A DNA stretch of 64,000 nt from Nitrososphaerales archaeon (lineage in GTDB: Archaea; Thermoproteota; Nitrososphaeria; Nitrososphaerales; UBA213): assembly GCA_046759465.1 (NCBI GenBank), contig JBHICH010000002.1, positions 7,468-71,467 on the forward strand. Reading direction: 5' to 3'. The notes under the pieces were generated by a model that saw only the letters and a list, made by a program, of their open reading frames with translations, was not told where the DNA came from and ran no database searches. Made by a program: the position numbers and the translations under genes. Every line of letters begins with the position of its first letter. Positions within the stretch are counted from its first letter, which is position 1. Shown in pieces: positions 18,703-59,485 of this stretch.

Positions 18703-19491
18703 ATGTTCGATTACCAAAATCATTCTACCTTTTCCGACGGAGATGGCACAATTATCGAGATTTGTCAAGCAGCTGATGAAAGAAAGTTAAGAGAAATTTG
18801 CATTACTGACCACATAATATTGTTGAAAGGTTGGCCTTACAACATCAAAAATATTGATGCATATTTCAGAGCTATTGAAGAGGCCCAGGCTAACGTGAAA
18901 GTTAAAGTAAGAATTGGAGCCGAAATAGATTATTTCGAGGATAAAGAAAGGCAAATCGAAGAAATATTAAATGATTATGCTTTTGATTATATTCTAGGTT
19001 CTACACATTTCCTCGGTCCAGAAAATCTTGAACTTAACCATTGTGCTATTTACAAGAACAAATCACAGATAGAGACCTACAGAATATATTTTGCTAAATG
19101 GGAAAAAGCGGTAAGCAGTCAGCTATTTGATGCCATGGCCCATCCTGATTATGTTAGAAGGTGGGCAGTGCCATTCTATGGTAGCGAACTTGAATTTTCA
19201 AAATATAAAGAATTAGTTGAAAATACATGTCATTTCATTGCCGATAACGATTTAGGAATAGATGTAAATTGTTCCGGTTTTAGACATAATTTAAAGAGCA
19301 CATATCCGTCAAAAGATTTCTTGGAATTGTGCAAAAAAATAGGGGTGAAAAACTTTGTGCCTAGTTCTGATTCACATACACCCCCAGATGTTGGATCGAA
19401 TTTGGAGAAAGGTATGGAAATTTTAAAGCGTGTTGGAATAGATGAAATAACTACCTTTGGCAAAAGGAAACCCACCTATCATTATATATAA
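18703..19491 (+). CDS. PHP-domain phosphoesterase (HisJ-type histidinol-phosphatase-like)
   Basis: 'DYQNHSTFSDGDG', 'ITDH', 'GSTHF', 'AHPD' metal-ligand pattern. Confidence 0.75.
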   Translation: MFDYQNHSTFSDGDGTIIEICQAADERKLREICITDHIILLKGWPYNIKNIDAYFRAIEEAQANVKVKVRIGAEIDYFEDKERQIEEILNDYAFDYILGSTHFLGPENLELNHCAIYKNKSQIETYRIYFAKWEKAVSSQLFDAMAHPDYVRRWAVPFYGSELEFSKYKELVENTCHFIADNDLGIDVNCSGFRHNLKSTYPSKDFLELCKKIGVKNFVPSSDSHTPPDVGSNLEKGMEILKRVGIDEITTFGKRKPTYHYI

Positions 19492-21764: not shown

Positions 21765-22577
21765 CTAGGCTTCCCATAACTCTTTCAATTTTTCTGCCGA
21801 CCTATTGGCGTCCTTTTTGCTCGTAAATACCTCCAATGTTATCCTACTTTCGTAGCCGATTTCTTTAAGCGCCTTGACTACTCGTCTATGATCGATTAAA
21901 CCAGCTCCAATCGGTAGGTGCTCATCAAACTCTCCATGATTGTCGTGCCAGTGAATATGGGCCAACTTATGCCTGAATGTTCTGATATAAGCCAGCACGG
22001 ATTTCATGCCACCAGAAGTAAATGCATGCGGGATATCCAAGTGTACCTGCAGGTCCGGCACATGCTTAACGATATATCTGAACTCATCCAGCTTGTGAAT
22101 TCCATTGCTGCTTCTTGGCATGTTTTCCAGCATAACTTCTATGTTCAAGTCCTTCGCGTACGAAACAATCTCCTGCAAACTAGTTATCGAATTATGCAGC
22201 ATCATCTTTCGCTTCTTTCCGTAAAACATTCCATTTGAGTTGGCATGAAAATTGATTTGAGAAAGTCCAAGCTTCTCTGCAATATGCAAAATCCTTCTGG
22301 ATTCGAGGATCCAGCCGCGACGCACATGCTCATAATCAGAACTAAGATCGATCCAATGAGCCGTATGGCCGATAGGTTTTGTTTTAAAAGCTTTAAGTAA
22401 TTTCATTATCTGTGGCATCTTTCTTTGAAGAACCTGAGGCTTGCCCTCTGGCGCCTCTATCCCGATCTCTACATAATCGATGCCCATTCTCTGGATGGTT
22501 CTTATCTCCTTCAGGATCTCAATCGATGGGTTCGTAGCCAACCCAAAACTTGGCGGCATAGGATAAACTCCACTCAA
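21765..22577 (-). CDS. Xylose-isomerase-like TIM-barrel protein (sugar-phosphate isomerase/epimerase or Endo IV-like fold)
   Basis: 'VMLENM', 'HLDIPH', 'HIHWHDNHGEFDEHLPIGAGLIDH', 'TLEVF'. The ORF-track start is TTG; an ATG at 22559 is more likely. Confidence 0.75.
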   Translation of the reverse strand: MSGVYPMPPSFGLATNPSIEILKEIRTIQRMGIDYVEIGIEAPEGKPQVLQRKMPQIMKLLKAFKTKPIGHTAHWIDLSSDYEHVRRGWILESRRILHIAEKLGLSQINFHANSNGMFYGKKRKMMLHNSITSLQEIVSYAKDLNIEVMLENMPRSSNGIHKLDEFRYIVKHVPDLQVHLDIPHAFTSGGMKSVLAYIRTFRHKLAHIHWHDNHGEFDEHLPIGAGLIDHRRVVKALKEIGYESRITLEVFTSKKDANRSAEKLKELWEA

Positions 22578-23745: not shown

Positions 23746-24120
23746 TTAGCTACCTAACATCTTACCAGCGGGATTCTTCTCACGTTCTATCCATTGTATC
23801 ATGGGCTTACTTTTGCACTTCTTCATAATTTCCCATGCCTGAAGGCATAGATTCCTTATATGATCTTCGTTAATTCCAAACCTTCGATTCAGCCAACCTA
23901 CAGCATTCTGAGAATCGCTATAGATGGTAACTTGCTCCGCTTGTTGTATAACTTGATCCTTGAATACCTCTATGAAGGCCATTAGTTCAGCTTCATGATT
24001 AGTTAGATTATCTCCTTTGAAATGTTTAACGTCTCCAGTTTCTTCGATGTAGTAACCGTAAATAGATTTAGGTTTCCCGGAACCATCAACATAGACACGC
24101 AGTTTCATACAGTCTAGCAA
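23746..24120 (-). CDS. rnhA: Type 1 RNase H (RNase HI-like), minimal form; TTG at 24120 or ATG at 24108
   Basis: 'RVYVDGSG' (Asp), 'TNHEAELMAFIE' (Glu), 'IYSDSQNAV' (Asp). Confidence 0.7.
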   Translation of the reverse strand: MLDCMKLRVYVDGSGKPKSIYGYYIEETGDVKHFKGDNLTNHEAELMAFIEVFKDQVIQQAEQVTIYSDSQNAVGWLNRRFGINEDHIRNLCLQAWEIMKKCKSKPMIQWIEREKNPAGKMLGS

Positions 24121-25240: not shown

Positions 25241-25558
25241 CTAATCGTTACATGGCGGTTCGTTCTCAATTTTGATCTTAGCCTCAATTCGTTTCCTTTT
25301 TTGTTCAGTAGAATTTGGCATAGGATATATTGCTATATACAGGTTAGATTCTGAACCAGCTCTTTCGATCCAGCAATCACGCTTATGATGTGAGCTAATG
25401 CCTCGCTCATCGAGATTACTGCTTTCGCCAACATAGGCCAAATTCCAATTCCCTGTTTGTTTGTACAGGATAGAATATAATGCAGCTTGTCTAGGGACAT
25501 CCCAATTGCTTAACGAATATGGACCATCAAACAGGATACCACTAATTGCTATACCCAT
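25241..25558 (-). CDS. Small GIY-YIG-like domain protein
   Basis: 'ALYSILYK...LAYVGESSNLDERG...H' and a later 'IEAKI'. 105 aa. Lies 12 nt downstream of the DUF72 gene. Confidence 0.45.
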   Translation of the reverse strand: MGIAISGILFDGPYSLSNWDVPRQAALYSILYKQTGNWNLAYVGESSNLDERGISSHHKRDCWIERAGSESNLYIAIYPMPNSTEQKRKRIEAKIKIENEPPCND

Positions 25559-25570
25559 TTATCATCACTA

Positions 25571-26434
25571 TCAATGATACTGGTCTAGAGTCGGAGCCTT
25601 GCCTGACAATACCATCTCAACACTTTTCAAAACTTTTTTCTGTTCCTCATTTATCCTTCCAATCATCTCAGTAAACTGCAAGCAGTTTGCAACAGCCCAT
25701 GCAGAGAAATGATTATTGAAATATCCATATGTCTTTTTAGTCTCTTCAACTATCTTCTTCACCTTGTCTAGCCAGGGCACAAATTCTTCTTTCTTGTAGT
25801 AATAGTAATACCAACTCTCCTTCCCTCTTCCATGCCATCTGATAAAAGAATTTTCCGCTGTGACCGAAATCTCGGAGAGAAACTGAAGCTTTGGATCTGG
25901 ACAATCTGTGATAACGGCTGAGATGTTATAATGCTTCAAGAGCTCCCACGGACCCTCTGTCTGCCACGAACCATGTCTAAACTCGATCGCATAATCATAA
26001 TTGCTGGGCAATCTCTCCAGAAAGCTTTGAACGTTCCTGAACTCGCTGACACCGAAGCTCGGCGGCAACTGAATAAGAAGCGCTCCCAGCTTGTTAGTTG
26101 TCTTGAGCGGAGAAATTTTGTCTATAAATTCCTGAAAATCATCAAACGCACCCTTCCTAGCATCCAGCCTTTTCTTGTGGGTTATTGTTTCTGGCAGCTT
26201 GAGAGAAAAAAGGAAGCCCTCTGGCACAGCTTTGGAGATACCGATGAAAGTACCTTTAGTCATATTCGAGTACAACTTTTCATAAAAAGTTGAATCCATC
26301 TCAGCAGTATTGAAGAACTGTGAATAATGCTGCAGCATTTTAGTCTTCCTTGTAGGGTAGAATACTCCTAGCCAACCGTTAGGAGGTGGCTCAGGATAGT
26401 TCCATCCAGAGGTACCAAGATAAAGCTCTCCCAT
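25571..26434 (-). CDS. DUF72 (YecE/UPF0759) family protein
   Basis: Canonical N-terminus 'LYLGTSGWNYPEP...W.GVFYP' and 'FNTAEMDSTFY'. 287 aa. Confidence 0.8.
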   Translation of the reverse strand: MGELYLGTSGWNYPEPPPNGWLGVFYPTRKTKMLQHYSQFFNTAEMDSTFYEKLYSNMTKGTFIGISKAVPEGFLFSLKLPETITHKKRLDARKGAFDDFQEFIDKISPLKTTNKLGALLIQLPPSFGVSEFRNVQSFLERLPSNYDYAIEFRHGSWQTEGPWELLKHYNISAVITDCPDPKLQFLSEISVTAENSFIRWHGRGKESWYYYYYKKEEFVPWLDKVKKIVEETKKTYGYFNNHFSAWAVANCLQFTEMIGRINEEQKKVLKSVEMVLSGKAPTLDQYH

Positions 26435-26469
26435 TAAGGTAATATTTTACCTCGAGTTATAATAAGCGA
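26435..26469. promoter_or_regulatory. 35-bp divergent control region with crossed TATA-like boxes and inverted repeat GGTAA-N4-TTACC
   Basis: taaggtaatattttacctcgagttataataagcga. 'taatatttta' lies about 25 nt upstream of the + start (26470). 'ttataata' lies about 25 nt upstream of the - start (26434). Confidence 0.35.
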
Positions 26470-27468
26470 TTGCAAAACTGGGATATAAGAGGCAATCAGG
26501 GGATTATTCTGCACTACAAATCTAAAACCATTGCTCTTGACCCGAATAAGAGTGTAACATCCGATGTTACTTTTGTGTCGCATGCGCACCACGATCACAT
26601 GCACGAGCCCGTAACAAAAGAAAATCTTCTCATGTCAGAAGAAACCCGCAACATCGCTGAGGCACGGGGCTACAAGATCCTAGATGCAAAGCATGAACTT
26701 GAAGGCTTCGAGCTTGTCGACTCTGGTCACATTTTTGGCTCGAAGTCACTACTGATAGAAGGAGAAATTTTCTATACCAGCGATCTTTCAATAAGGAATC
26801 GAGCATATCTAAATGGCTGCATGCCGAAGAAGTGCAGAGCGCTGATAATAGAAGCAACCTATGGCCAGCAACAATTTGTATTTCCGAGCACGCATAAAAT
26901 AATAGAACAAACCAACAGGGCAATTGCAGATTGCTATGACAAAGGCCTCCCTGTAATTTTAATGGGTTATCCCCTTGGTAAGGCGCAAGAACTCACTTAT
27001 CTATTCAGTCACTGGTCGCCAATATACGTACATGATAGAGTCTACACTATGAACTGGGTTCACAAGCATATGGGTCTAGACCTGCCTGATGGCACTAGTC
27101 TTTCAGAAGCAAGAGAGAAAGGCCTGCTTGAGAAGAGTCCTTGGATGATGATATCGCCAATGGTCAGCAGAAGTAACCAACTGATCGAGGTGCTCAAGGA
27201 AAAATACAAGGCGAAGACAATAGGATTCAGTGGCTGGTCTTTGATCCAGCGTTACAGGCACTATCTTGGTTTGGATTACTCATTTCCTCTAAGCGACCAC
27301 TGCGATTATACCGAGCTTATGCAATTTGTCAAAGCCTGCGAGCCAGAATATGTCTATACCTTCCATGGTTATGCCGAGGAGTTGGCCCAAAGTTTAAGGA
27401 AACTAGGTTATGAAGCAGAACCCCTCAAGCCTTATCCTAAAATCACCGACTACTTTGCGGAGGACTAA
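26470..27468 (+). CDS. Metallo-beta-lactamase fold nuclease, short beta-CASP type; TTG start
   Basis: 'VSHAHHDHMH' (HxHxDH), 'DSGHIFGS', 'YTSDLS', 'IIEATYG', and C-terminal 'LSDHCDYTEL'. Confidence 0.75.
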   Translation: MQNWDIRGNQGIILHYKSKTIALDPNKSVTSDVTFVSHAHHDHMHEPVTKENLLMSEETRNIAEARGYKILDAKHELEGFELVDSGHIFGSKSLLIEGEIFYTSDLSIRNRAYLNGCMPKKCRALIIEATYGQQQFVFPSTHKIIEQTNRAIADCYDKGLPVILMGYPLGKAQELTYLFSHWSPIYVHDRVYTMNWVHKHMGLDLPDGTSLSEAREKGLLEKSPWMMISPMVSRSNQLIEVLKEKYKAKTIGFSGWSLIQRYRHYLGLDYSFPLSDHCDYTELMQFVKACEPEYVYTFHGYAEELAQSLRKLGYEAEPLKPYPKITDYFAED

Positions 27469-27471
27469 AGC

Positions 27472-28194
27472 TTGACGCAGGAAACATATATCGGAACTGG
27501 AGGGTGGGCCTACTATCCTGTCCCAAGAGGAAGAAACAAACTTTACGAGTATTCAAAAAAGTTTAATTTTGTAGAGGTAAATTTCACTGCAACCGAAATT
27601 CCGGACTTCGAGCAGGTTGCCTCTTGGAGAAAGACAGTTCATGATGATTTTTCTTTTAGCGTGAAATGTAATCAAGCTGTTGTTGCTTCACTACGGAGCA
27701 ACAAGGTTGATGATGCGCTTTTGGTTTACGAGACCATGCTCGACATCTGTAAGATCCTAGGAGCAAAAATAATGGTCATCCAGACTTTCCCTGACTTCCA
27801 ATTCAAACTAGATTTCATGAAGAATATGGATCAGTTCTTGAACGGAGCATATCTTGATGATGTAAAGCTAGCATGGGAAGTTAAGGGAGCAAGCCATTTC
27901 GCGAAAAATTTCGTTGAGCTGATTCAAGAATACAACGTTATTCATGCAGCTGATATTAGCCTGTTAATGCCTATCTATGAATCAGATGTTCTATACACAA
28001 GGCTGCATGGAAAATTGAAGGGAAGGTTGCATCACTTAAATGATCACGAATTAGAGATTGTCGCCCACAAAATAGCAAACAGCAAAGCGAGGAAAGTTCA
28101 TGTTGCGGGACATACTGTGAGTATGTACGAAGATTCGGAGAGGCTTAAGGAGATTCTAAAGAACTATTCACTTGAACAAACCAAGACAGCATAG
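27472..28194 (+). CDS. Divergent DUF72-like protein; TTG start 3 nt after upstream stop
   Basis: 'YIGTGGWAYYP...YSKKFNFVEVNFT' matches the DUF72 N-terminal pattern. 240 aa. Confidence 0.6.
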   Translation: MTQETYIGTGGWAYYPVPRGRNKLYEYSKKFNFVEVNFTATEIPDFEQVASWRKTVHDDFSFSVKCNQAVVASLRSNKVDDALLVYETMLDICKILGAKIMVIQTFPDFQFKLDFMKNMDQFLNGAYLDDVKLAWEVKGASHFAKNFVELIQEYNVIHAADISLLMPIYESDVLYTRLHGKLKGRLHHLNDHELEIVAHKIANSKARKVHVAGHTVSMYEDSERLKEILKNYSLEQTKTA

Positions 28195-29193: not shown

Positions 29194-30099
29194 GTGCTTA
29201 AAGATATAATCGAGAAGGCGGTTTTGTCAAACGATGCTGAATTTTCAGCTCTTATCAGGAATGTCTTATCCATACAGAAGAAGGAGAGAAGCGATGCTGT
29301 TATGGGCGATTTAATAGTCAACGAAGGGCTGGTCAGGATGGTGCAGAGGCACAGATTAATTCTTGTAGGCGACCTTCATGGCGATCTTCAGAGTTTAGCT
29401 GTTATACTACAGAAAAGCAACTTTCTTGGCGATCTGTCAAGCAGAATTATCTTCTTGGGTGATTATGGCGATAGAGGCCAAGAGTCTGTTGAAGTATACT
29501 ATGTTATCCTCTATCTGAAATCAAGATTTTCCGATCGTGTTATACTTATGCGTGGAAATCATGAAGGACCAAGCGATATGCCATTTTATCCCCATGATCT
29601 GCCAGAGCAGATACTCGGAAAGTTTGGCAGTGTAGGCAACTCCATCTATCAAGCGCTAAGATCATTGTTTGATGTGATGTACCATGCCGTTCTGTTTGAA
29701 AATTCCTACCTGATATTACACGCAGGAGTGCCAACAAGTTTTAGTTCCATAAATCATATTGCAACTGCGAACAAGACACATCCAAATACCAGATACCTGG
29801 AAGAAATACTCTGGAACGATCCAAGAGAAATAAAGGGCTCTGAACCATCTGGAAGGGGCTATGGAAAGTATTTCGGCAAGGATATTACCGAACAGGCACT
29901 TAAAATAACAAACACAAAAGCATTGATTAGAGCCCACGAACCTTGCAACGGTTTCAAGTTAGATCACGATGGACTTGTTCTAACACTATTTTCCTGCAAG
30001 GCACCTTACGGCAACATGGACGCGGCGTATTTGGAAATCAACCGGGAGAGTTACAACTTGACTGCGGAAGACCTTGCCAAAATAGTAGAATTAATCTGA
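29194..30099 (+). CDS. PPP-family Ser/Thr protein phosphatase (metallophosphoesterase); GTG start, or ATG at 29302
   Basis: 'GDLHGD', 'GDYGDRG', 'RGNHE'. Confidence 0.85.
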   Translation: MLKDIIEKAVLSNDAEFSALIRNVLSIQKKERSDAVMGDLIVNEGLVRMVQRHRLILVGDLHGDLQSLAVILQKSNFLGDLSSRIIFLGDYGDRGQESVEVYYVILYLKSRFSDRVILMRGNHEGPSDMPFYPHDLPEQILGKFGSVGNSIYQALRSLFDVMYHAVLFENSYLILHAGVPTSFSSINHIATANKTHPNTRYLEEILWNDPREIKGSEPSGRGYGKYFGKDITEQALKITNTKALIRAHEPCNGFKLDHDGLVLTLFSCKAPYGNMDAAYLEINRESYNLTAEDLAKIVELI

Positions 30100-30139
30100 T
30101 AGTTTTAGTAATAGAATGAGGTGACAAGGCTGTAAGTGC

Positions 30140-30727
30140 ATGCTCATAGTAATAGAAGGAAGTGACAAGGCTGGGAAGGCTACTCAAACGCAGTTATTAG
30201 CAGACAGACTTGCAAAAGAGCGCTTCAGCGTCAAAACTTGTGCATTCCCAGACTACTCAACAAAGATAGGCAAGGAGATCAAGGCACTTCTTCATGGCAA
30301 AAGGGATTATCCTATCGAGGTTAGGCATATGCTACTCTCAGCCAACAGATGGGAGAAGAAGAGAGCGATCGAAGGTATGCTCAAGGCCAACAAGGTCGTC
30401 ATTCTGAACAGATACTATCAATCAAACTTGGTATATGGTCTGGCAAGCGGCCTGAAGCTGGAGTGGTTGCAGTCACTCGATTCAGGCTTGCCCAAGGAAG
30501 ATCTTGTTATAGTACTCGATGTTTCCCCAGAGGTTTCAATCAAAAGGAGGCAGAGAGAGGAAGACATTTTTGAGACGAACAATGATATAATGAACAACGT
30601 ATCAAGATTATACCGGGAGTTTGCTATCAAATACAATTGGATTTTGATTGATGGCGATCGCAGCGAGGAAGAAGTACATAAGGAAATTTTGAAAATCGTT
30701 GAAGAGAAGATAAAACAAAAACATTAA
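30140..30727 (+). CDS. tmk: Thymidylate kinase
   Basis: P-loop 'IEGSDKAGKATQ' and 'NRYYQSNLVY'. 195 aa. Confidence 0.85.
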   Translation: MLIVIEGSDKAGKATQTQLLADRLAKERFSVKTCAFPDYSTKIGKEIKALLHGKRDYPIEVRHMLLSANRWEKKRAIEGMLKANKVVILNRYYQSNLVYGLASGLKLEWLQSLDSGLPKEDLVIVLDVSPEVSIKRRQREEDIFETNNDIMNNVSRLYREFAIKYNWILIDGDRSEEEVHKEILKIVEEKIKQKH

Positions 30728-30752
30728 GTCAACATCCATCAATCTATCTGGT

Positions 30753-32045
30753 ATGGTATTTAGGCCAGTTGCGGAAATAAGCGATCCCATACATGGTTAC
30801 GTTTACTTGTCAGCAGTCGAACGAGATATTATCGACACATATACTTTTCAGCGGTTAAGGAGGATAAGGCAGTTAGCTGGCGCACATCTAATATATCCTG
30901 GTGCCCAGCACTCTAGGTTCGAACATTCACTAGGAACAATGCATTTAGCTGGTCTTGCTGGAAATGTGTTGAAGGACAAAGGATACATGGATGGTGATCA
31001 GATCCAGACTTTAAGACTTGCAGCATTATTACACGATATTGGGCATGGACCGTTTTCACACTTGTTTGAAGAGGTAATGGCAGAAAGAAGCAAAATAACA
31101 CATGAAGATATTGGCAGAAAGATAATACAGCAAACAGTGATCAGAGACATTCTTAGCAAGCACGGCTTCAGTGCAAAGTCGATAAGCACATTGTGCTTCG
31201 GCGAATCAAAAATGACATTTCTCAACGAAGTAATTGCTGGAGGTTTAAGTGCAGATATAATGGATTACCTGCTTCGCGATTCATACTTCACAGGTGCGAA
31301 ATATGGTAATGTTGATGCTGAACGAATAATAAGTTCCTTCGAGGTTGACAAAAACACGCTAGCTTTAGATAAAGCTGCGCTTTATTCGTTCGAATCATTG
31401 ATGATATCTCGATACGAGATGTTCAAGGCAGTCTACTTTCACAAAACTGTTAGATCTGCTGAGGTTATGTTACTGCGCTCAATGATACTTGCAGACGAAG
31501 AGCTAAAGCTTACAGAGAGTTCAATTGAAAACTATCTTGAACTTACAGACGATGCCACTATGGTTAGGCTCACATCGTTACATGCAAAAAACGACGATCT
31601 GAAACTCGCAGCAAAGCTTGCTAGAGACTACATGAATAGAAGATTACTGAAGTGCGTATTTGAAAAGATACTGCACAAGAGTGACAGCATTGTAAGAAGG
31701 CTCTTCAGCAAGAAGACGCTCGAGAGCCTGACAGACCAAATTGCAAGCAGTGCTAATGTTGATCCCAACAAGGTTTACATCGACGCCTCGAAAGCGCCTT
31801 CGGTTCCCTTAACGCCCGCCAAGCAGCAGCTAAGTTCAATAGTTCTTGTGGGCAAGGACTCTGAGGGCAAGAAGGTGCATTACACATTATCAATAAACGA
31901 CATTCCTGTAATAAGTTCGATTTCCGGTTTTATGGACATGATAAGGGTTTATACTACAAGTGAAAGTAGAACCAAGGTTGAAAGATCTGTGAAAAAGGTT
32001 TTAGGCGCAGGTGTAGAATCATGGTACCAAAAGGTGAGCATGTGA
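30753..32045 (+). CDS. HD-domain dNTP triphosphohydrolase-like protein (SAMHD1/dGTPase-like)
   Basis: 'HSRFEHSLGT', 'LLHDIGHGPFSH', 'DYLLRDSYFTG'. Confidence 0.8.
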   Translation: MVFRPVAEISDPIHGYVYLSAVERDIIDTYTFQRLRRIRQLAGAHLIYPGAQHSRFEHSLGTMHLAGLAGNVLKDKGYMDGDQIQTLRLAALLHDIGHGPFSHLFEEVMAERSKITHEDIGRKIIQQTVIRDILSKHGFSAKSISTLCFGESKMTFLNEVIAGGLSADIMDYLLRDSYFTGAKYGNVDAERIISSFEVDKNTLALDKAALYSFESLMISRYEMFKAVYFHKTVRSAEVMLLRSMILADEELKLTESSIENYLELTDDATMVRLTSLHAKNDDLKLAAKLARDYMNRRLLKCVFEKILHKSDSIVRRLFSKKTLESLTDQIASSANVDPNKVYIDASKAPSVPLTPAKQQLSSIVLVGKDSEGKKVHYTLSINDIPVISSISGFMDMIRVYTTSESRTKVERSVKKVLGAGVESWYQKVSM

Positions 32046-32719
32046 AGAAAAGAATCGTTATCAAACTAAGCGGAAGTGTGTTTTCTGAAAATTCAAGTGA
32101 AACATCACTGCTCAAGTATGCTACTATGCTAAAGTCGAACAGCAAAAAGGCACAGCTAGTGGTTGTTGCTGGAGGAGGGCATATAGCAAGGCATTACATA
32201 AACCTAGCGAGGAGCCTTGGTGTAGATGAATCCAGCCTAGATGAATTAGGGATCGAAGTCTCTAGGCTTAACTCACAGCTTCTTGTATATGCATTAGGCA
32301 CTGCAGCACACCCCCACATTCCCAAGAACCTGCATGATGTTGTTGAAGCTGTTGAGACGGGCAAGATCGTTGTTGCTGGTGGTTTGCATCCTGGGCAGAG
32401 CACAAATGCAACATCTGCACAGATAGCCGAAAAGATCAACGCAAGCATGTTCATTAATGCTACAGATGTTGATGGTATTTATGATTCGGATCCAAGGACT
32501 CACAAAAATGCCAGGCTCTTAAAAACGATCAAAATGCGTGCATTACGGAATATGCTTACACACGAAAGCACGATGGCAGGAGCATACGACCTTATGGACA
32601 TAGTCGCCCTAAAGGTAATAGAAAGATCAAAGATTCCTACAAGAGTGATCAAAGCAAATGTTAACACAATCAAGCGAGCACTTGGTGGTGCAGATGTTGG
32701 AACAAAAATAATCACTTAA
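32021..32719 (+). CDS. pyrH: Uridylate (UMP) kinase, archaeal type
   Basis: 'IVIKLSGSVF', 'VVAGGG', 'ATDVDGIYDSDP'. Overlaps the upstream gene by 25 nt. Confidence 0.85.
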   Translation: MVPKGEHVKKRIVIKLSGSVFSENSSETSLLKYATMLKSNSKKAQLVVVAGGGHIARHYINLARSLGVDESSLDELGIEVSRLNSQLLVYALGTAAHPHIPKNLHDVVEAVETGKIVVAGGLHPGQSTNATSAQIAEKINASMFINATDVDGIYDSDPRTHKNARLLKTIKMRALRNMLTHESTMAGAYDLMDIVALKVIERSKIPTRVIKANVNTIKRALGGADVGTKIIT

Positions 32720-44273: not shown

Positions 44274-46940
44274 TTAACCAGATACGCAGCTGCTCCAGCC
44301 ACACTCAACACAGCTGCTGCATCCTTCTATGTATATGACTTTTCCATTACACAATGGACACGGTTCTATCTCTGTTTGTGCTTGTGGTTTCATCACTCTT
44401 TGCACATACTCTTGACCGTTCTTCCTTTCTGCCACCTTGATCACTTTCTCTACTTCTTTGTAGATAAACTCATCCTTGATATTGTTCTTTATGTAATCTA
44501 CAACGTAATCACTTGGCAGAATATCGAATCTTTTCTCTTTCGAATCACTTGTTATATGCAATACCTGCTGGTGTCTTGATCCGTCCCTAAATACAGTGAC
44601 TCCCTTTAGGCCTAGCTCGTGCGAAAGTAAGTATGAGCACTTGACATCATCTGCAGTTACATCATTCGGCATGTTTATCGTCTTTGCAATTGCATTGCTT
44701 ACCCACCGCTGCCAAACAGCTTGGGCCATCAAGTGATCTGCCCAATGAACATCGATCGCAGTAACGAATACTCTCTGTATCCATTCTGGTATGCCATCTA
44801 AAGCTCTTATTGAGCCATAATTCTGTGATATTTTCTCCAGCAATTCATCGCTGTAAAGTCCTTGCACCTTGAGCATATCTTCGAACACCTTGTCTGTGTA
44901 GAAAAATCTGCCTACTGTAACTCTCTTTTCATAAACCAATGCAAACATAGGCTCCACTCCGTTTGATGTATCTGCAATCATAGAAAGTGTTCCAGTTGGA
45001 GCAACTGTAGTTGTTTGCGAGTGCCTCATTCCAAAGCGCATTATCTTGTCTATCAAAGAGTCCCAGTCATACGAGTGCTGGCTCTTTGGAACTTCGTAAT
45101 AACCAGCTATTGGTATCTTTCCATACACATATTCGGATTCGTTGAACAACGGAAATGCACCTCTGTTCCTAGCAATCTGAACGCTCTCCTCGATGCTATA
45201 GTATGACAACGCTTCTGCAAGCTTTGACATAAACTCGTATCCTTCTTTTGAGTTGTATGGTATCTTCAGTATGTAAAATAGATCTGCGAGTCCCATTATC
45301 CCCAAACCAATTCTTCTTGTTAATTTGCTTGCAACATCGATTTCTGGAACGGGATACTTGTTCGAATCAATAATGTTGTCAAGGAATCTTGTTGTAAGTC
45401 TTATTACTTGCTCATACCTCTGCCAGTCAAATTCAAATTCTCCATCAGCTCTTCGCTTGACAAAGTTTGCCAAATTAATCGATCCAAGGTTGCATGATTC
45501 ATATGGATACAGACTTTGCTCTCCACACGGATTTGTTGCTCTGATAAATCCTTGGGCTCTCTTCATGACATTGTACCTGTTCATGATGTCAAAGAACAGA
45601 ACGCCGGGCTCTGCGCTCTGCCATGCACTTAATGCAATAAGATCGATCAACTGGTTTGCATCGATGAAATTTACGATCTGCCCAGTTCTCGGGTTCTTTA
45701 ATGGATACTTACTCTTGTTCTTTATAGCGTCCCACAAGTCTTCCCAGATACCAACGCTTACATTGAAGTTTTCAAACACACCTGGCTTTGTTTTTGCAGT
45801 GACAAACTTTTCGATGTCTGGATGCCAAGCCTCTAGTATTCCCATGTTGGCTCCTCTCCTCTTCCCGCCTTGCTTCACAACTTCTGTTACAGTATCTATG
45901 ATCTGCATGAATGATGTTGGTCCCGACGCAACGCCAGATGTTGATGCAACAATGTCACCTTCAGGTCTTAGGTTGGAGTAGTTGATACCAACACCTCCTC
46001 CAGATTTGAAGATCAGCGCAGCATCTGTCGATGACTTCATTATGCTGTACATATCATCTCTCATATCTAGCACAAAGCATGCAGACAGTTGTCCAAGCCT
46101 TGCGCCAGCATTCATAATAGTTGGTGAATTTGGTAGAAAGTCCCTGTCTACCATTAGACTATTGTATTCCTCTACTCTTTTTGCATAATCATCGAACTTG
46201 CCGTCTTCAAACATTCTTAGCAATTCGCTTACGCTTACCTTCATCTGACCCTGCCCTGATAGATCCTTGTAGATCATAAGCAGAGATTCAATATGCCATT
46301 TGTTCAGAGTGTATGGTCCGATCTTGAACCTCTTATCCAGTTCATTTAATCTGCCTAGATAGTCGTTAAGCTCTTCGATACTCTGCTTTACACCTGCCTT
46401 AAGACCAAATACCCTCTGGTCCCTCATTACATCTGGCAAGGTTACCAGAATTGCTACGCGTTCAAATACTTGCTTTGGACTCTCAACTATCCTGCCATTT
46501 TCATCTCTTAGCAGGTATCTCGATGCAAGCACACGCAAGGAGTTTACATCGAAGGCCTTGTCTACCTCATCTAGAGAGGTTCGCTCAAGGACCTTCATCT
46601 TCTCCTCCCTTACCTTTCTCCTTTCGTGCCTGTAAAGGATGTATGCCTTTGCAGTTTCCGATAGACCTTCTTCGATCAAGACGGATTCTACGATGTCCTG
46701 AACATCTTCAACACTTGGCACATCGGCCTCGTCATAGCCCTGCTGAACAAGCCTTTGCACAGTTTTGCTTGTTAGCCTATCCGCCAACGGATAGTCAGCT
46801 CTATTGGTTGCAACAAGTGCTTTGTAAATAGCGTTTGATATCTTCGATGCTTTAAAGTCGACAACCCTGCCATCCCTCTTTCTTATCTTGTTTATTACAG
46901 TAGATACGTCTGATCTGAAAGTATCAGTAGTTCCCGCCAT
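44274..46940 (-). CDS. nrdJ: Class II (adenosylcobalamin-dependent) ribonucleotide reductase with N-terminal ATP-cone
   Basis: ATP-cone 'IRKRDGRVVDFKASKI...'. 'TNPCGEQSLYPYESCNLGSINL'. C-terminal CxxC...CxxC tail. 888 aa with no intein-sized insertion. Confidence 0.9.
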   Translation of the reverse strand: MAGTTDTFRSDVSTVINKIRKRDGRVVDFKASKISNAIYKALVATNRADYPLADRLTSKTVQRLVQQGYDEADVPSVEDVQDIVESVLIEEGLSETAKAYILYRHERRKVREEKMKVLERTSLDEVDKAFDVNSLRVLASRYLLRDENGRIVESPKQVFERVAILVTLPDVMRDQRVFGLKAGVKQSIEELNDYLGRLNELDKRFKIGPYTLNKWHIESLLMIYKDLSGQGQMKVSVSELLRMFEDGKFDDYAKRVEEYNSLMVDRDFLPNSPTIMNAGARLGQLSACFVLDMRDDMYSIMKSSTDAALIFKSGGGVGINYSNLRPEGDIVASTSGVASGPTSFMQIIDTVTEVVKQGGKRRGANMGILEAWHPDIEKFVTAKTKPGVFENFNVSVGIWEDLWDAIKNKSKYPLKNPRTGQIVNFIDANQLIDLIALSAWQSAEPGVLFFDIMNRYNVMKRAQGFIRATNPCGEQSLYPYESCNLGSINLANFVKRRADGEFEFDWQRYEQVIRLTTRFLDNIIDSNKYPVPEIDVASKLTRRIGLGIMGLADLFYILKIPYNSKEGYEFMSKLAEALSYYSIEESVQIARNRGAFPLFNESEYVYGKIPIAGYYEVPKSQHSYDWDSLIDKIMRFGMRHSQTTTVAPTGTLSMIADTSNGVEPMFALVYEKRVTVGRFFYTDKVFEDMLKVQGLYSDELLEKISQNYGSIRALDGIPEWIQRVFVTAIDVHWADHLMAQAVWQRWVSNAIAKTINMPNDVTADDVKCSYLLSHELGLKGVTVFRDGSRHQQVLHITSDSKEKRFDILPSDYVVDYIKNNIKDEFIYKEVEKVIKVAERKNGQEYVQRVMKPQAQTEIEPCPLCNGKVIYIEGCSSCVECGWSSCVSG

Positions 46941-47046: not shown

Positions 47047-49152
47047 TTAGGCATATCCTTGCAGGATATGTGGAGATCTGCATGAGCCACACTTGTCTAT
47101 AACTTCTAAGCTCTTCTGACCGCAGTTGCCGCAAACAAAAACCTTCATTCTTGCTCTAAAGAATGTTAGCATATCTGCCGCACTTTCTATTGCTGCCTTG
47201 ACATCGGTGTTGTTCATTGTATTGTTTACATCCAGAGTTACAGAAAGTCCACCATTAAGCAACTTTTCCATAGCATTGCACTCCTTTATTATCGGAGAAT
47301 CCTTCTTAATCTCTATCATATCGGCAGCAGGTATGACCATTCCTTGCGAATATGCATTATTGCTCGTTTGTAGCAAGATCTTGCCATACCTTCCTGTATC
47401 TAGAGCAGCAAATCTGGTAGCGCTATCATCAATTATCATCGCTATACCAACATCGTCTCCAGTCTGTTTCCCCTTTTCTATTGCAACATCAACTGATGTC
47501 CTGATTACTTTTTGGACTACATCCAAGCAACTATTTGTGTCGTCGTAGCCGAGTATGTTTGCAACAGATTCGTGTAAACCAACCAAGTTTACAACCATGT
47601 TTGCACTTCCTCTCTGCATGAACTGAGTGCTGTCTGCAAGTGTAGGAATAAGGCCCTTCCTTGTTAGATCGGTTATTGTCTTCTTCCTAATAGAAAGTGC
47701 GGTTATTGCGGGCTTTATCAGAAGCGCAAGCCTAGCTCTGAAGTATGTTTCGTCCTTGTTTGATTCATAGGCAAGTCTGGGCAGGTTTATTGCTAGTGAT
47801 TGCAATAACATCACAGTGTTGGCGCTTTGTCCATTACCCAAGCTCCTTGATACACCCATGGCACTCCTTACCTGATTTGGATTGCCCAGCAATGTTATTG
47901 CACCTCCAGCACGCACGATGTTGGAGATCTTGTCAGCATAATCATTTACAGCACCGTTGCTGTATGTCAAGACCAGTCCTATCCTGGGCATTGGGGTTGC
48001 ATGCACATACGTCTCATACCCCTTCAGCACAGCATCGACATACTTCTTTTCCGAACCATCTAGATTGACGTTCAAGGACATGTTTGGAGATGTTGGTGAA
48101 TGCGATGGAGCGCTGGAACCTATTATGAGAGCCTTCGCAAACTTGTTCGCCAACGAGCTATCGCTTCCACACCTTTGAATAAGCGGTATTATCTCATCTA
48201 CAAAGACTTCGGTTGAAGCTTCCCTGCTCAGCAGACTATTGAGCAGTGCAAGACAAGAGCAGAAATCATCTACGCTCTTGATAGAGCTTATTCTTGACAC
48301 GTTCAGGAACTTGCCCTTTAGGTTTATTCCTTCTTCAGCAAGCTCGTTTATATTGATAAATATGGAATCGGGTATAAGACCCCAGGTTCCAGGATTTGAT
48401 ATGTGTATATCGCCAGCTAAATACGAATCGGCTATATCCTTTGGAAGCGTGTTGAAGACAAGGTATTCGGAGAAAACTGTTTGAGCTGTCTTTGCTAGCA
48501 CACTTTCAATTCCGTTTTTGACCTCATCTACGCTGTTCATCATCTGAGCGATATCAAAGACTGGCATACCTAGTCTAGCCAATTTATGTCTATACTCTTC
48601 ATGGCCATGTTCAATCAAAACTGAATTTACCATTTCCCGTATCAAGGGAGCGGTTAGGTATGCAGTTTGGAACTTGTAGATCTTGTTTTCAACCTCCTCT
48701 GTTATCTTCTGCGCAAGTTCCAATGGTACACTTGCTTCCCTAACCAGAGACTGGATTATTTTGTGGGAGTTGAACTCCTCTATCATTTGATTTGAAGTTC
48801 TAACGTACATCTTTCCACTTTCAATTATAGACCGCTCCTCGATCTGCCTAGCAAGGCTTAGCACCAGTTTGCCCAAGTTTGTAATGGTGTACCTTCTTTC
48901 AGCCTTGTTCAGAGCAACAAGTGACTGCCTGAGTAACTTCCTCAAGTGGTAGGCGAACTTGCCACTCTCCTTCTTTGACTTGAACCCTGCTAGTGCCTTT
49001 AGTTCTGAATATGTTAATGGACCCTTTGAATTCAATATTCTAAGAATATCTATCCTGTTTGGGCTTGCCATCACGGAGAAGATCATCCGAACCCGCTTTG
49101 AAGCTGACTCCAGAACACCACCCTTCTTCGCTTCAACATGACTCAATTCCAT
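47047..49152 (-). CDS. Fusion protein: ArsR-type winged HTH + ATP-cone + class III RNR (NrdD)-like body + C-terminal zinc ribbon
   Basis: wHTH 'ASPNRIDILRILNSKGPLTYSELK'. ATP-cone 'MYVRTSNQMIEEFNSHKIIQSL...'. NrdD-like 'YLAGDIHISNPG' and 'AINLPRLAYES'. Ends 'CGNCG...CGSCRSPHILQGYA'. Confidence 0.7.
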   Translation of the reverse strand: MELSHVEAKKGGVLESASKRVRMIFSVMASPNRIDILRILNSKGPLTYSELKALAGFKSKKESGKFAYHLRKLLRQSLVALNKAERRYTITNLGKLVLSLARQIEERSIIESGKMYVRTSNQMIEEFNSHKIIQSLVREASVPLELAQKITEEVENKIYKFQTAYLTAPLIREMVNSVLIEHGHEEYRHKLARLGMPVFDIAQMMNSVDEVKNGIESVLAKTAQTVFSEYLVFNTLPKDIADSYLAGDIHISNPGTWGLIPDSIFININELAEEGINLKGKFLNVSRISSIKSVDDFCSCLALLNSLLSREASTEVFVDEIIPLIQRCGSDSSLANKFAKALIIGSSAPSHSPTSPNMSLNVNLDGSEKKYVDAVLKGYETYVHATPMPRIGLVLTYSNGAVNDYADKISNIVRAGGAITLLGNPNQVRSAMGVSRSLGNGQSANTVMLLQSLAINLPRLAYESNKDETYFRARLALLIKPAITALSIRKKTITDLTRKGLIPTLADSTQFMQRGSANMVVNLVGLHESVANILGYDDTNSCLDVVQKVIRTSVDVAIEKGKQTGDDVGIAMIIDDSATRFAALDTGRYGKILLQTSNNAYSQGMVIPAADMIEIKKDSPIIKECNAMEKLLNGGLSVTLDVNNTMNNTDVKAAIESAADMLTFFRARMKVFVCGNCGQKSLEVIDKCGSCRSPHILQGYA

Positions 49153-59391: not shown

Positions 59392-59485
59392 TGGTGCGGT
59401 CGCCGGGATTCGAACCCGGGTCGCGGGCTCCCTTCGTTCTAAACATGGAAGGCCAGCGTCCTAGACCAAACTAGACGACGACCGC
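59392..59485 (-). tRNA. tRNA-Gly (anticodon UCC) with 16-nt intron at the canonical 37/38 position (59430-59445) and encoded CCA
   Basis: Hand fold. Acceptor GCGGTCG/CGACCGC. D-arm GTCT/GGAC. Anticodon loop CU-UCC-AA after splicing. T-arm CCGGG-TTCGAAT-CCCGG. The bulge-helix-bulge motif has bulge CAT, helix CTTC/GAAG and bulge GGA. Confidence 0.9.

What the first reader, a model, noticed from the sequence alone, without database searches (positions are those of the whole stretch)
25241..28194. Divergent four-gene cassette: GIY-YIG-like + DUF72 | beta-CASP metallo-beta-lactamase + DUF72-like
Seen: two 2-gene units are arranged head to head with only 35 bp between their start codons (26434 and 26470). 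On the minus strand, DUF72 (287 aa) is followed after 12 nt by a 105-aa GIY-YIG-like protein. On the plus strand, a 332-aa MBL/beta-CASP nuclease (HAHHDH ... SDHCDYTEL) is followed after 3 nt by a second, divergent DUF72-like protein (240 aa). The 35-bp spacer carries crossed TATA-like boxes and an inverted repeat GGTAA-N4-TTACC, which suggests co-regulated leaderless transcripts. Established: GIY-YIG and beta-CASP domains are nucleic-acid nucleases. DUF72 is an uncharacterised TIM-barrel family; as far as I recall, the Thermotoga TM1631 structure was predicted to be endonuclease-IV-like and DNA-binding. Inference: the cassette may be an undescribed DNA (or RNA) damage-processing or repair module in which paired DUF72 proteins work with two different nucleases.
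Basis: partly seen in the sequence, partly recalled or inferred. Interest (0 to 1): 0.65.

Follow-up and report, generated by a model that had tools for sequence, protein, structure and literature searches.

The report
Split DUF72 gene pair plus nucleases
The four genes are real, but only the two DUF72 genes form a module conserved across archaea (adjacent, once fused, often beside a damage-tolerance DNA polymerase operon), while the two nuclease genes sit next to them only in this lineage.

Summary
All four ORFs, the 35-bp head-to-head spacer and the 12-nt and 3-nt gaps are exact. Both DUF72 calls are solid. The 332-aa protein is a beta-CASP metallo-beta-lactamase with every catalytic motif. 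The 105-aa protein has a GIY-YIG fold (AlphaFold2 pLDDT 92.7; top 18 Foldseek hits are all GIY-YIG).

The two DUF72 genes belong to two old paralogue subfamilies, A (canonical) and B (divergent). In 80 archaeal loci found with B, an A gene lies directly beside it in 63: 44 tandem (mostly 4-bp overlap), 17 divergent, 1 convergent and 1 fused. The PolB2-iRadA-PPB2 translesion polymerase operon recurs next to the pair. The nuclease links are not conserved. None of 84 distinct loci carrying relatives of the beta-CASP gene hold a DUF72 gene. The small GIY-YIG-like gene sits in five unrelated contexts elsewhere. Only two related Bathyarchaeia loci place a beta-CASP gene of the same family beside the pair.

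The most likely reading is an A/B DUF72 heterodimer acting on damaged DNA. Here it is split by a lineage-specific insertion of an "Exo"-family beta-CASP nuclease that is probably co-transcribed with B. The function remains inferred.

The parts
25571..26434 (-). DUF72 subfamily A, the canonical type (287 aa). It is the orthologue of the second gene of archaeal DUF72 tandem pairs.
   Evidence: Pfam PF01904 E 8.1e-54. TM1631 (PDB 1vpq) E 6.1e-28. It is 40-43% identical to the second gene of the pairs and about 25% identical to the window's B. It keeps the equivalents of TM1631 pocket residues S7, E42, K72, H79, Q114, E143, R145, R191 and N239, and has Asp (D47) at the N44 position. It has Cys in place of the D-E-P Glu that is 100% conserved in A-type sequences.
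27472..28194 (+). DUF72 subfamily B, the divergent partner (240 aa, TTG start). It is the orthologue of the first gene of archaeal DUF72 pairs. It is a short, degenerate member.
   Evidence: Pfam PF01904 E 1.9e-26. It is 36-41% identical to the first gene of the pairs. The AF2 model is of moderate confidence (pLDDT 65.7); its best Foldseek hits are DUF72 structures 1ztv, 1vpy and 1vpq at E 6e-9 to 5e-8. It has lost the B-family-conserved F-Y and T-H motifs and lacks the roughly 80-aa C-terminal tail. Its best identity among 1.84 billion representatives is 39%.
26470..27468 (+). Compact beta-CASP metallo-beta-lactamase nuclease (332 aa, TTG start). It is related to the 'Exo' protein of bacterial Exo-Lig-Lhr-MPE repair clusters and sits 3 nt upstream of DUF72-B.
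   Evidence: TIGR04122 E 1.1e-38, 132.9 bits, below the 325-bit equivalog cutoff. RMMBL E 8.6e-6. Motifs D24, H38-x-H40-x-D42-H43, H87, D105, E128, H277 and H299 are invariant in 120 orthologues. The orthologues are from Nitrososphaerota and reach at most 55% identity.
25241..25558 (-). Small stand-alone protein with a GIY-YIG fold (105 aa), 12 nt downstream of DUF72-A.
   Evidence: 11 orthologues at 47-80% identity, 104-109 aa long. AF2 pLDDT 92.7. The top 18 Foldseek hits are GIY-YIG nucleases: the UvrC N-terminal domain and R.Eco29kI. Pfam GIY-YIG is only sub-threshold. The orthologues sit in five unrelated contexts.
26435..26469 (.). 35-bp AT-rich divergent intergenic spacer, presumed to be a bidirectional promoter. 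It holds the AGGTAA-TATT-TTACCT inverted repeat at 26437-26452.
   Evidence: Sequence read. The inverted repeat is not beyond chance. Divergent A<>B pairs in other archaea have similar spacers of 14-145 bp.

Best explanation
**Core unit.** The functional core of this locus is a two-paralogue DUF72 module. DUF72-A (25571-26434) is the canonical type and DUF72-B (27472-28194) is a divergent partner. In other archaea the two are almost always encoded side by side and occasionally fused.

**Likely function (inferred).** The most probable product is an A/B heterodimeric TIM-barrel enzyme that replaces the homodimer predicted for TM1631. It would recognise or incise damaged DNA, in the manner of its nearest DNA-repair fold relative, UVDE. 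It would work upstream of, or alongside, damage tolerance by the PolB2 translesion polymerase, next to whose operon the pair often sits.

**This genome's arrangement.** The ancestral divergent A<>B arrangement has been modified. A catalytically intact beta-CASP nuclease of the Lhr/ligase-associated 'Exo' family now sits between the shared 35-bp promoter region and B. It is probably co-transcribed with B, given the 3-nt gap. A small GIY-YIG-fold gene lies 12 nt behind A. Both additions are specific to this lineage, so the four genes are not a conserved system. If the beta-CASP nuclease does cooperate with the pair, the simplest scheme is incision by DUF72 A/B followed by exonucleolytic processing from the nick.

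**Shown versus inferred.**
- Shown: gene structure, family and fold assignments, A/B orthology, conservation of pairing, one fusion, PolB2 adjacency, and non-conservation of the nuclease links.
- Inferred: heterodimer formation, DNA as the substrate, co-transcription, and any cooperation with the beta-CASP nuclease.
For: **A/B orthology.** W_B is 36-41% identical to the first genes of the pairs. W_A is 40-43% identical to the second genes. A and B are only about 25% identical to each other.

**Pairing.** Of 80 loci found with the B profile, 63 have an A gene directly adjacent: 44 tandem (typically a 4-bp overlap), 17 divergent with 14-145-bp spacers, 1 convergent and 1 fused. Seven more had no room on the contig. 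The fusion in L061 carries two DUF72 domains. All six word-index homologues of B whose context was read lie in such pairs.

**Taxonomic spread.** Bathyarchaeia, Asgard phyla, Methanoperedens, Nanoarchaeia and Nitrosopumilales.

**PolB2 link.** PolB was found in 27 of the 80 loci, the Rad51-like iRadA in 24 and a 90-aa PPB2-like gene in 17. These sit immediately next to the pair in about 15 loci, in at least three different arrangements. The literature independently reports DUF72 enrichment near polB2 and a UVDE-like fold (PMC11791011).

**Pocket conservation.** The B family keeps most of the putative TM1631 pocket residues: the equivalents of E42, N44, F/Y47-48, K/R72, H79, Q114, E143, R145 and R191.

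**Dimer precedent.** TM1631 is predicted to form a homodimer (PMC3828134).

**Beta-CASP nuclease.** All catalytic motifs are invariant. The family is tied to Lhr helicase in L002, L137, L146 and L174, and perhaps L147, and to the Exo-Lig-Lhr-MPE cluster (PMC7826289). A member of the same family abuts the pair in L040 and L036.
Against: - No DUF72 protein has a measured activity.
- The fold is shared equally with sugar epimerases and isomerases. In the Foldseek search with the B model they rank alongside UVDE.
- TM1631 crystals show no active-site metal (PMC3828134).
- The window has no PolB2 or iRadA gene.
- Both window copies deviate at positions that are otherwise invariant. W_B has F-Y changed to A-T and T-H changed to V-A, and has no C-terminal tail. 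W_A has the D-E-P Glu changed to Cys. The module may therefore be relaxed or repurposed here.
- Seven B loci lack an adjacent A gene despite having room.
- Many of the 80 loci are Bathyarchaeia, so the counts are not phylogenetically independent.
- The beta-CASP motif C is His (H299), the type classically called RNA-type, and Pfam prefers RMMBL over DRMBL. An RNA substrate is therefore not excluded.
Confidence: 0.55

Rival explanations
1. One reading: all four proteins form one dedicated DNA or RNA damage-processing module, in which the paired DUF72 proteins work with both nucleases (beta-CASP and GIY-YIG).
For: The spacing is tight: a 35-bp divergent spacer and 12-nt and 3-nt gaps. All four are nucleic-acid-enzyme folds or candidates. 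The beta-CASP motifs are intact. A TIGR04122-like beta-CASP gene abuts the DUF72 pair in L040 and L036.
Against: None of 84 distinct loci carrying relatives of the beta-CASP gene contain a DUF72 gene or the 105-aa gene. The 105-aa orthologues occupy five unrelated contexts. Only 2 of the 80 B loci have the beta-CASP gene; they come from related genomes (B proteins 68% identical) and the gene is convergent, so it is not co-transcribed with B. The Arg and Glu equivalents of the GIY-YIG catalytic set vary among orthologues; the Glu position is Q, A or V in 6 of 12.
Confidence: 0.12
2. The DUF72 A/B pair is a metabolic enzyme, for example a sugar or sugar-phosphate isomerase/epimerase-like or phosphoesterase TIM barrel. 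Its neighbours, including PolB2 and the nucleases, reflect lineage synteny rather than function.
For: Foldseek with the B model ranks D-tagatose and D-psicose 3-epimerases and L-rhamnose isomerase at the same level as UVDE. Many recurrent neighbours in Bathyarchaeia are plainly syntenic housekeeping genes: TrmI, DHDPS/Fae, an ABC transporter and an RNase J-like gene. There is no biochemical evidence for DNA activity.
Against: The PolB2-iRadA-PPB2 operon lies directly beside the pair in several different arrangements and in different phyla. This was reported independently (PMC11791011). Some B and A orthologues carry extra C-terminal tails, which are unusual for sugar enzymes: DUF2795-like on B, and a CxxW..CKH motif on A. 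The TM1631 pocket is electropositive and resembles a phosphate-binding site (PMC3828134).
Confidence: 0.18
3. The pair is decaying or being repurposed in this lineage. After it was separated from A by the beta-CASP insertion, B became a non-catalytic remnant or an accessory subunit of the beta-CASP nuclease, and the locus no longer encodes the ancestral A/B activity.
For: W_B has substitutions at about 10 positions that are at least 95% conserved in 73 B sequences, including a Tyr conserved in 100% of them. It lacks the C-terminal tail and is at most 39-41% identical to any relative. W_A has lost the invariant D-E-P Glu. In this genome B is coupled by position to the beta-CASP gene rather than to A.
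Against: Both ORFs are intact and full length across the TIM-barrel core. W_B keeps E35, N37, K65, Q104, E136, R177 and H214. Short B forms of about 220-240 aa exist elsewhere. The whole genome appears divergent from sampled relatives, since its beta-CASP protein is also only 55% identical to its best relative.
Confidence: 0.15

Closest known systems
DUF72 / UPF0759 family (PF01904; Thermotoga TM1631, PDB 1vpq; Enterococcus EF0366, PDB 1vpy/1ztv; E. coli YecE)
   Same: Both window proteins pass the Pfam threshold. A aligns to TM1631 at E 6e-28 and keeps its putative pocket residues. The B model's best structural matches are the DUF72 crystal structures.
   Different: The known structures are of single-gene proteins predicted to form homodimers. 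Here, and in at least 63 other archaeal loci, two paralogues of about 25% identity are encoded together, and once fused. B forms a small distinct subfamily, with 176 clusters at 50% identity at E<=1e-30. It carries its own signature: Gly for TM1631 Ser7, Phe for His193, and no N-N motif. It often carries a DUF2795-like tail.
DUF72 genes enriched near archaeal and bacterial PolB2-iRadA-PPB2 operons (Timinskas and Venclovas 2025, PMC11791011)
   Same: The same family and the same association. PolB, Rad51-like and a 90-aa gene flank the pair in about a quarter to a third of the B loci.
   Different: That paper mentions a single 'DUF72 family protein', not an A/B pair. The window has no PolB2 operon and instead carries a beta-CASP nuclease in the B transcription unit.
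UVDE and endonuclease IV (DNA-repair endonucleases with a xylose-isomerase-like TIM barrel)
   Same: Same fold class. SacUVDE (4gle) and UVDE (3c0l) appear at E 1e-4 to 4e-4 with the B model. Published modelling puts DNA in the TM1631 groove (PMC3828134).
   Different: There is no sequence-level relationship and no demonstrated metal site. Sugar epimerases score equally well. Nothing has been tested biochemically.
'Exo' beta-CASP protein of the bacterial Exo-Lig-Lhr-Core-MPE repair gene cluster (TIGR04122; Ejaz and Shuman 2018, cited in PMC7826289)
   Same: It is the best family match (E 1e-38, full length 20-320 of 326). All MBL and beta-CASP motifs are present. Some relatives sit next to Lhr helicase.
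   Different: The score is well below the equivalog cutoff (133 against 325 bits). No ligase, Lhr or MPE/PdeM gene lies beside it in the window. The nearby metallophosphoesterase at 29194-30099 matches ApaH-like phosphatases, not PdeM. The bacterial Exo is itself only a 'putative exonuclease'.
GIY-YIG nuclease domain (UvrC N-terminal domain, R.Eco29kI)
   Same: Same fold (TM 0.52-0.64, probability 0.95-1.0) and the Y...Y-x-G...R...E...N pattern. In the window copy these are Y28, Y42, R52, E92 and N104.
   Different: The protein is a stand-alone 105-aa domain with an extra N-terminal beta-hairpin. Pfam is sub-threshold. The Arg and Glu positions are not conserved among orthologues. It has no link to UvrB/UvrC-type partners or to introns or mobile elements, and nothing was found in viral contigs.

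Membership tests
DUF72 (PF01904) | Match to the Pfam model above the gathering score | tested here: met
   A scores 183.4 bits and B 93.9 bits; the cutoff is 25.3.
DUF72 (PF01904) | TIM-barrel fold like TM1631/EF0366 | tested here: met
   A aligns by sequence to 1vpq at E 6.1e-28. The B model (pLDDT 65.7) has 1ztv, 1vpy and 1vpq as its top hits at E 6e-9 to 5e-8.
DUF72 A/B paralogue pair (defined here) | One A-type and one B-type gene adjacent in the same locus | tested here: met
   W_A is orthologous to the second genes of the pairs and W_B to the first genes. The two are divergent here and separated by the beta-CASP gene. 63 of 80 reference loci have an adjacent pair.
DUF72 A/B paralogue pair (defined here) | B-subfamily signature residues and the C-terminal DUF2795-like tail | tested here: not met
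   W_B lacks the tail and has A-T for F-Y, V-A for T-H and H-H for Y-Q, among others. About 10 of the positions that are at least 95% conserved are changed.
PolB2-associated DUF72 | PolB2-iRadA-PPB2 operon in the neighbourhood | tested here: not met
   tblastn with PolB, Rad51-like and 90-aa queries finds nothing in the 64-kb window.
beta-CASP metallo-beta-lactamase nucleases | MBL motifs 1-4 (D, HxHxDH, H, D) and beta-CASP motifs A (D/E), B (H) and C (H/V) | tested here: met
   D24, H38/H40/D42/H43, H87, D105, E128, H277 and H299 are all invariant in 120 orthologues.
TIGR04122 ligase-associated DNA damage response exonuclease | Score above the equivalog cutoff | tested here: not met
   132.9 bits against a cutoff of 325.
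TIGR04122 ligase-associated DNA damage response exonuclease | Clustering with an ATP-dependent ligase, Lhr-Core helicase and MPE/PdeM | tested here: not met
   None lies beside it in the window. Lhr is adjacent in only about 5 of 84 related loci.
aCPSF1 / aRNase J (characterised archaeal RNA beta-CASP enzymes) | Match to the family model with KH or N-terminal domains, or RNase J architecture | tested here: not met
   aCPSF1 scores 33.5 bits against a cutoff of 580.2. The protein is 332 aa with no extra domains. The best PDB hit by sequence is CPSF73 at E 9e-7 over about 100 residues only.
GIY-YIG nucleases | Match to Pfam GIY-YIG above threshold | tested here: not met
   13.7 bits against 22.6. 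Five of 12 orthologues give weak hits, the best at E 0.042.
GIY-YIG nucleases | GIY-YIG alpha/beta fold | tested here: met
   The model has pLDDT 92.7. Its top 18 PDB hits are all GIY-YIG domains.
GIY-YIG nucleases | Conserved catalytic Tyr, Tyr, Arg, Glu, Asn (UvrC Y19, Y29, R39, E76, N88) | tested here: inconclusive
   The window copy has Y28, Y42, R52, E92 and N104. Across 12 orthologues Y28 and N104 are invariant, Y42 is Y or F, R52 is R, K, N or S, and E92 is E in 6, Q in 4, A in 1 and V in 1. The mapping to UvrC rests on my recollection of its sequence.
UVDE / endonuclease IV | Metal-binding His/Asp/Glu set and DNA-lesion incision | not testable with these tools
   Only fold-level similarity was found (E about 1e-4), no better than to sugar epimerases. 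No metal was seen in the DUF72 crystals (PMC3828134).

The most novel reading that the evidence does not exclude
Archaeal DUF72 A and B form an obligate heterodimeric, lesion-recognising DNA endonuclease that has not been described. Its job would be to start an excision or gap-forming pathway that hands damaged templates to the PolB2-iRadA-PPB2 translesion machinery. In some lineages, including this Nitrososphaerota genome and one Bathyarchaeia clade, it would have recruited an Exo-family beta-CASP exonuclease as its resection partner. That would give archaea lacking UvrABC a missing damage-incision step.
Probability: 0.2. Interest if true: 0.75.

Novelty: new variant of a known kind. Interest (0 to 1): 0.45.

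Why it matters
DUF72 is a large, structurally solved family with no known function. How most archaea recognise and incise bulky DNA lesions is still unsettled. In many archaea DUF72 turns out to come as a conserved, sometimes fused, two-paralogue unit sitting beside the damage-inducible PolB2 operon. That gives a concrete experimental handle: co-express A and B rather than one protein alone, and test damaged DNA. It may also explain why single-protein work has not produced a function. For this window, the result narrows the four-gene cassette to what is really conserved. The two nuclease genes are lineage-specific neighbours, of which only the beta-CASP gene has even weak independent support for a link.

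Tried and rejected
- **Conserved four-gene cassette: rejected.** Four close beta-CASP orthologues and 80 metagenomic relatives (676 kb of sequence) have no DUF72 gene and no 105-aa gene nearby. Five contexts of the 105-aa gene show no DUF72 or beta-CASP gene.
- **Spacer palindrome as a regulatory site: not supported.** Comparable inverted repeats occur in 9-10% of controls. Other lineages carry different palindromes, so there is no shared motif.
- **A wider repair island: rejected.** The metallophosphoesterase at 29194-30099 is not PdeM/MPE; it is ApaH/PP-like. The AP_endonuc_2 TIM barrel at 21765-22577 is more like a sugar epimerase than Nfo. The PHP protein at 18703-19491 is a HisJ-type histidinol phosphatase.
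- **The 105-aa gene as a viral or mobile homing nuclease: no support.** No relatives were found in viral contigs.
- **The RNase J-like beta-CASP gene recurring near the pair in Bathyarchaeia (16 loci).** This is a different family (TIGR00649) lying 4-5 kb away, and I judged it to be synteny.
- **The public 278-aa gene call for the beta-CASP gene: rejected.** It removes the HxHxDH motif.
- **The structure model of B.** It reached only moderate confidence (pLDDT 65.7), so I used it only for fold class.
- **Promoter and terminator scan: not run.** The tool covers bacterial sigma-70 promoters only.

Full report
**1. The observation**

All four ORFs exist exactly as described: 25241-25558(-) 105 aa, 25571-26434(-) 287 aa, 26470-27468(+) 332 aa and 27472-28194(+) 240 aa. 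The divergent start codons are 35 nt apart (26435-26469). The minus-strand genes are 12 nt apart and the plus-strand genes 3 nt apart.

Pfam confirms DUF72 for the 287-aa protein (E 8.1e-54) and the 240-aa protein (E 1.9e-26). The 332-aa protein hits RMMBL (E 8.6e-6). In NCBIfam its best match is TIGR04122, "ligase-associated DNA damage response exonuclease" (E 1.1e-38, 132.9 bits, below the 325-bit equivalog cutoff). The GIY-YIG hit for the 105-aa protein is sub-threshold (E 0.079).

The window is chromosomal DNA of a Nitrososphaerota (Thaumarchaeota) archaeon. The hit taxonomy and the housekeeping context (A-type ATPase, ribonucleotide reductase, topoisomerase, thymidylate kinase) both point that way.

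The inverted repeat in the spacer is real (AGGTAA-TATT-TTACCT, 26437-26452) but unremarkable. About 9% of shuffles of the spacer, and 10% of AT-rich 35-mers in the window, contain an inverted repeat with arms of at least 6 bp.

**2. The beta-CASP protein**

An alignment with 119 homologues, all from Nitrososphaerota and at most 55% identical, shows every catalytic motif to be invariant: D24, H38-x-H40-x-D42-H43, H87, D105, E128 (motif A), H277 (motif B) and H299 (motif C).

TTG at 26470 is the only possible start. The public 278-aa gene call removes the HxHxDH motif and is wrong.

The protein is not an orthologue of a characterised archaeal RNA-processing enzyme. It scores 33.5 bits against aCPSF1, whose cutoff is 580. 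The best PDB match by sequence is CPSF73 at E 9e-7, over about 100 residues only. Its nearest described relative is the "Exo" component of the bacterial Exo-Lig-Lhr-Core-MPE cluster, which is itself only a putative exonuclease (PMC7826289).

Its neighbourhood is not conserved with DUF72:
- The four closest orthologues have no DUF72 neighbour.
- One of them (L002) sits directly upstream of an Lhr helicase.
- In 80 further metagenomic loci (676 kb in total), tblastn finds no DUF72-A, no DUF72-B and no 105-aa gene.
- The recurrent neighbours are PurN, FolD, 5-formyl-THF cyclo-ligase and PurD, which is lineage synteny.
- Lhr is adjacent in about five loci.

**3. The 105-aa protein**

It is a real gene. 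Eleven orthologues of 104-109 aa share 47-80% identity with it. An AlphaFold2 model built on that alignment is confident (pLDDT 92.7, pTM 0.85). Its 18 best PDB matches are all GIY-YIG nucleases, namely the UvrC N-terminal domain and R.Eco29kI (probability 0.95-1.0, TM 0.52-0.64).

I mapped the residues onto UvrC from my recollection of the T. maritima sequence, where the catalytic set is Y19, Y29, R39, E76 and N88. On that mapping the window copy has all five equivalents: Y28, Y42, R52, E92 and N104. Across the orthologues the Arg position is R, K, N or S. The metal-binding Glu position is E in six, Q in four, A in one and V in one. Canonical nuclease activity is therefore not clearly under selection.

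Five different genomic contexts were read for orthologues. None contains a DUF72 or a beta-CASP gene. No relative occurs in viral contigs.

**4. The DUF72 pair: the real finding**

The 240-aa protein (B) has only six word-index homologues, at 35-41% identity. For the three whose context I read (covering six contigs), each is the first gene of a DUF72-DUF72 tandem.

Pairwise BLAST shows two orthology groups:
- W_B matches the first genes of those pairs at 36-41% identity.
- W_A matches the second genes at 40-43%.
- A and B types are only about 25% identical to each other.

A scan of one genome per GTDB species with a B profile found 147 relatives, of which 80 loci were retrieved. They come mostly from Bathyarchaeia. 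Others are from Asgard lineages (Promethearchaeota, Sifarchaeum, Borrarchaeota, Hodarchaeota), Methanoperedens, Nanoarchaeia, Nitrosopumilales and Geothermarchaeales.

| Arrangement of A relative to B | Loci (of 80) |
|---|---|
| Tandem B then A, mostly a 4-bp overlap | 44 |
| Divergent A<>B, spacers 14-145 bp | 17 |
| Convergent | 1 |
| Single B-A fusion protein with two DUF72 domains (L061) | 1 |
| No room on the contig for an A gene | 7 |
| No A gene although there was room | 7 |
| A gene nearby but not adjacent | 2 |
| B gene fragmented | 1 |

All the Asgard loci use the divergent layout with 14-48-bp spacers, the same architecture as the window apart from the inserted beta-CASP gene.

An exhaustive profile search of 1.84 billion cluster representatives finds only 176 B-type representatives at E<=1e-30, against 7377 DUF72 hits in general at E<=1e-3. 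None is more than 39% identical to W_B. B is therefore a small, old subfamily, and the window's copy is an outlier within it.

**5. What the pair is associated with**

I clustered all neighbouring ORFs in the 80 loci. The most frequent functional neighbours are:
- a family-B DNA polymerase, in 27 loci;
- a Rad51-like protein, in 24 loci;
- a 90-aa protein, in 17 loci.

Together these are the PolB2-iRadA-PPB2 translesion operon. It lies immediately next to the pair in about 15 loci, in at least three arrangements: divergent from B, co-directional downstream of B, and downstream of a lone B.

This agrees with a published note that DUF72 is "enriched to some degree" near polB2 and has a UVDE-like TIM barrel (PMC11791011). 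That paper does not describe a paralogue pair. Among the 12 papers in the library that mention DUF72, none reports an activity. The only functional proposals are computational, modelling Endo-IV-like DNA binding by TM1631 (PMC3828134 and PMC4939058).

A TIGR04122-like beta-CASP gene (141 bits) abuts the pair in L040, and as a split ORF in L036. These two Bathyarchaeia genomes are related (B proteins 68% identical), and the gene is convergent with B. This is one weak, independent hint of a link between the pair and this nuclease family.

**6. Residue-level view**

I aligned 63 A-type and 73 B-type sequences with TM1631.

The B family keeps most of the residues proposed to line the TM1631 pocket: the equivalents of E42, N44, F/Y47-48, K/R72, H79, Q114, E143, R145 and R191. 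It has its own fixed differences: Gly for S7, Phe for H193, and no N239-N240.

The window's B has lost several positions that are nearly invariant in the B family: F-Y to A40-T41, T-H to V71-A72, and Y-Q to H187-H188. It also lacks the roughly 80-aa tail, which is weakly DUF2795-like (Pfam E 0.002).

The window's A has Cys at the D-E-P Glu, which is 100% conserved in A-type sequences and in TM1631.

The AF2 model of B is only of moderate confidence (pLDDT 65.7), but it shows the beta/alpha repeat of a TIM barrel. Its best matches are the DUF72 crystal structures (E 6e-9 to 5e-8). These are followed, at similar significance to each other, by sugar epimerases and isomerases and by UVDE. Fold alone therefore cannot separate a DNA-repair function from a sugar-metabolism function.

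**7. Explanation**

The best-supported reading is that the conserved unit is a DUF72 A/B module, most likely a heterodimer. The evidence for a heterodimer is adjacency with overlapping stop and start codons, one fusion, and the predicted homodimer of TM1631. Its role is probably tied to DNA-damage processing, through the PolB2 context.

In this genome an ancestral divergent A<>B pair appears to have acquired two additions. An Exo-family beta-CASP gene lies between the promoter and B, 3 nt from B and so probably co-transcribed with it. A small GIY-YIG-fold gene lies behind A. Both additions are lineage-specific.

Three things remain inference: cooperation between the beta-CASP nuclease and the pair (incision followed by resection), the identity of the substrate, and even whether DUF72 has catalytic activity.

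The rival readings are a true four-protein module, a metabolic enzyme with syntenic neighbours, and a decaying or repurposed pair. They are listed with their evidence in the rival-explanations section.

**8. Verdict**

- Observation: confirmed.
- Interpretation: partly supported. The paired DUF72 genes and the DNA-damage flavour hold. The four-gene nuclease cassette does not.
- Novelty: a new variant of a known but uncharacterised kind. As far as the searchable literature shows, the A/B pairing of DUF72 has not been described.
- Interest: moderate. The window locus itself is a lineage-specific rearrangement, but it pointed to a testable and widely conserved archaeal module.

Noticed in passing
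L061:10001-11980 (Bathyarchaeota MAG contig CAVZKL010000017.1): A single 659-aa ORF fuses a B-type and an A-type DUF72 domain. Pfam finds two DUF72 stretches, and the BLAST scores are A 462 and B 421.
   Followed up: partly
L013, L022, L023 (Promethearchaeota), spacers between divergent DUF72 A and B: The 46-bp divergent spacers carry a palindrome with 7-bp arms, CCAAATA-TTC-TTATTTGG. The Borrarchaeota spacers (L033, L034) carry CTTATAAG. These sequences differ from the window's AGGTAA-TATT-TTACCT, so no shared operator motif was found.
   Followed up: partly
L007:6972-8147, L009:4582-5778 (A-type); P0122, P0124-P0127 (B-type): Many A orthologues carry a C-terminal extension of about 110 aa with an HDCEDW...CKH motif and no Pfam hit. 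Most B orthologues carry a tail of about 80 aa (FPxTKxxL...LPExxY) that is weakly DUF2795-like (E 0.002). Both window proteins lack these tails.
   Followed up: partly
window 26470-27468: The public gene call for the beta-CASP protein (P0001, 278 aa) starts at an internal Met and removes the HxHxDH metal-binding motif. The true start is TTG at 26470.
   Followed up: yes
window 59392-59485 (-): ARAGORN reports a tRNA of unknown type with a 4-base anticodon. Rfam scores it as a tRNA (46.8 bits) spanning 91 nt. It is probably an intron-containing archaeal tRNA.
   Followed up: no
window 47047-49152 (-): A 701-aa ORF combines an N-terminal HTH_20/DUF7347, an ATP-cone and an NrdD-like C-terminal region. 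It lies next to a class II-like ribonucleotide reductase at 44274-46940 (-). The architecture is unusual.
   Followed up: no
window 29194-32719: A run of nucleotide-metabolism genes lies just downstream of the cassette: an ApaH/PP-like metallophosphoesterase (29194-30099), thymidylate kinase (30140-30727), an HD-domain dNTPase-like protein (30753-32045) and an amino-acid-kinase-fold protein that overlaps it (32021-32719). An RNase HI-like gene lies upstream at 23746-24120 (-).
   Followed up: partly
L093-L099, L180-L182 (Nitrososphaerales contigs): The 105-aa GIY-YIG-fold protein is 70-80% conserved across Nitrososphaerales. That is more than the beta-CASP protein (at most 55%) or DUF72-B (at most 41%) from the same window. 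Yet it sits in a different neighbourhood in each of the five lineages examined.
   Followed up: partly
L002:6001-9935; L137, L146, L174: Relatives of the compact beta-CASP gene sit directly beside an Lhr-type helicase in a few archaeal and bacterial-like contigs. This echoes the bacterial Exo-Lig-Lhr-MPE cluster.
   Followed up: partly
window 25571-26434 (residue C178 of DUF72-A): The Glu of the D-E-P motif is invariant in 63 A-type DUF72 sequences and in TM1631 (E170). In the window's protein it is Cys.
   Followed up: no
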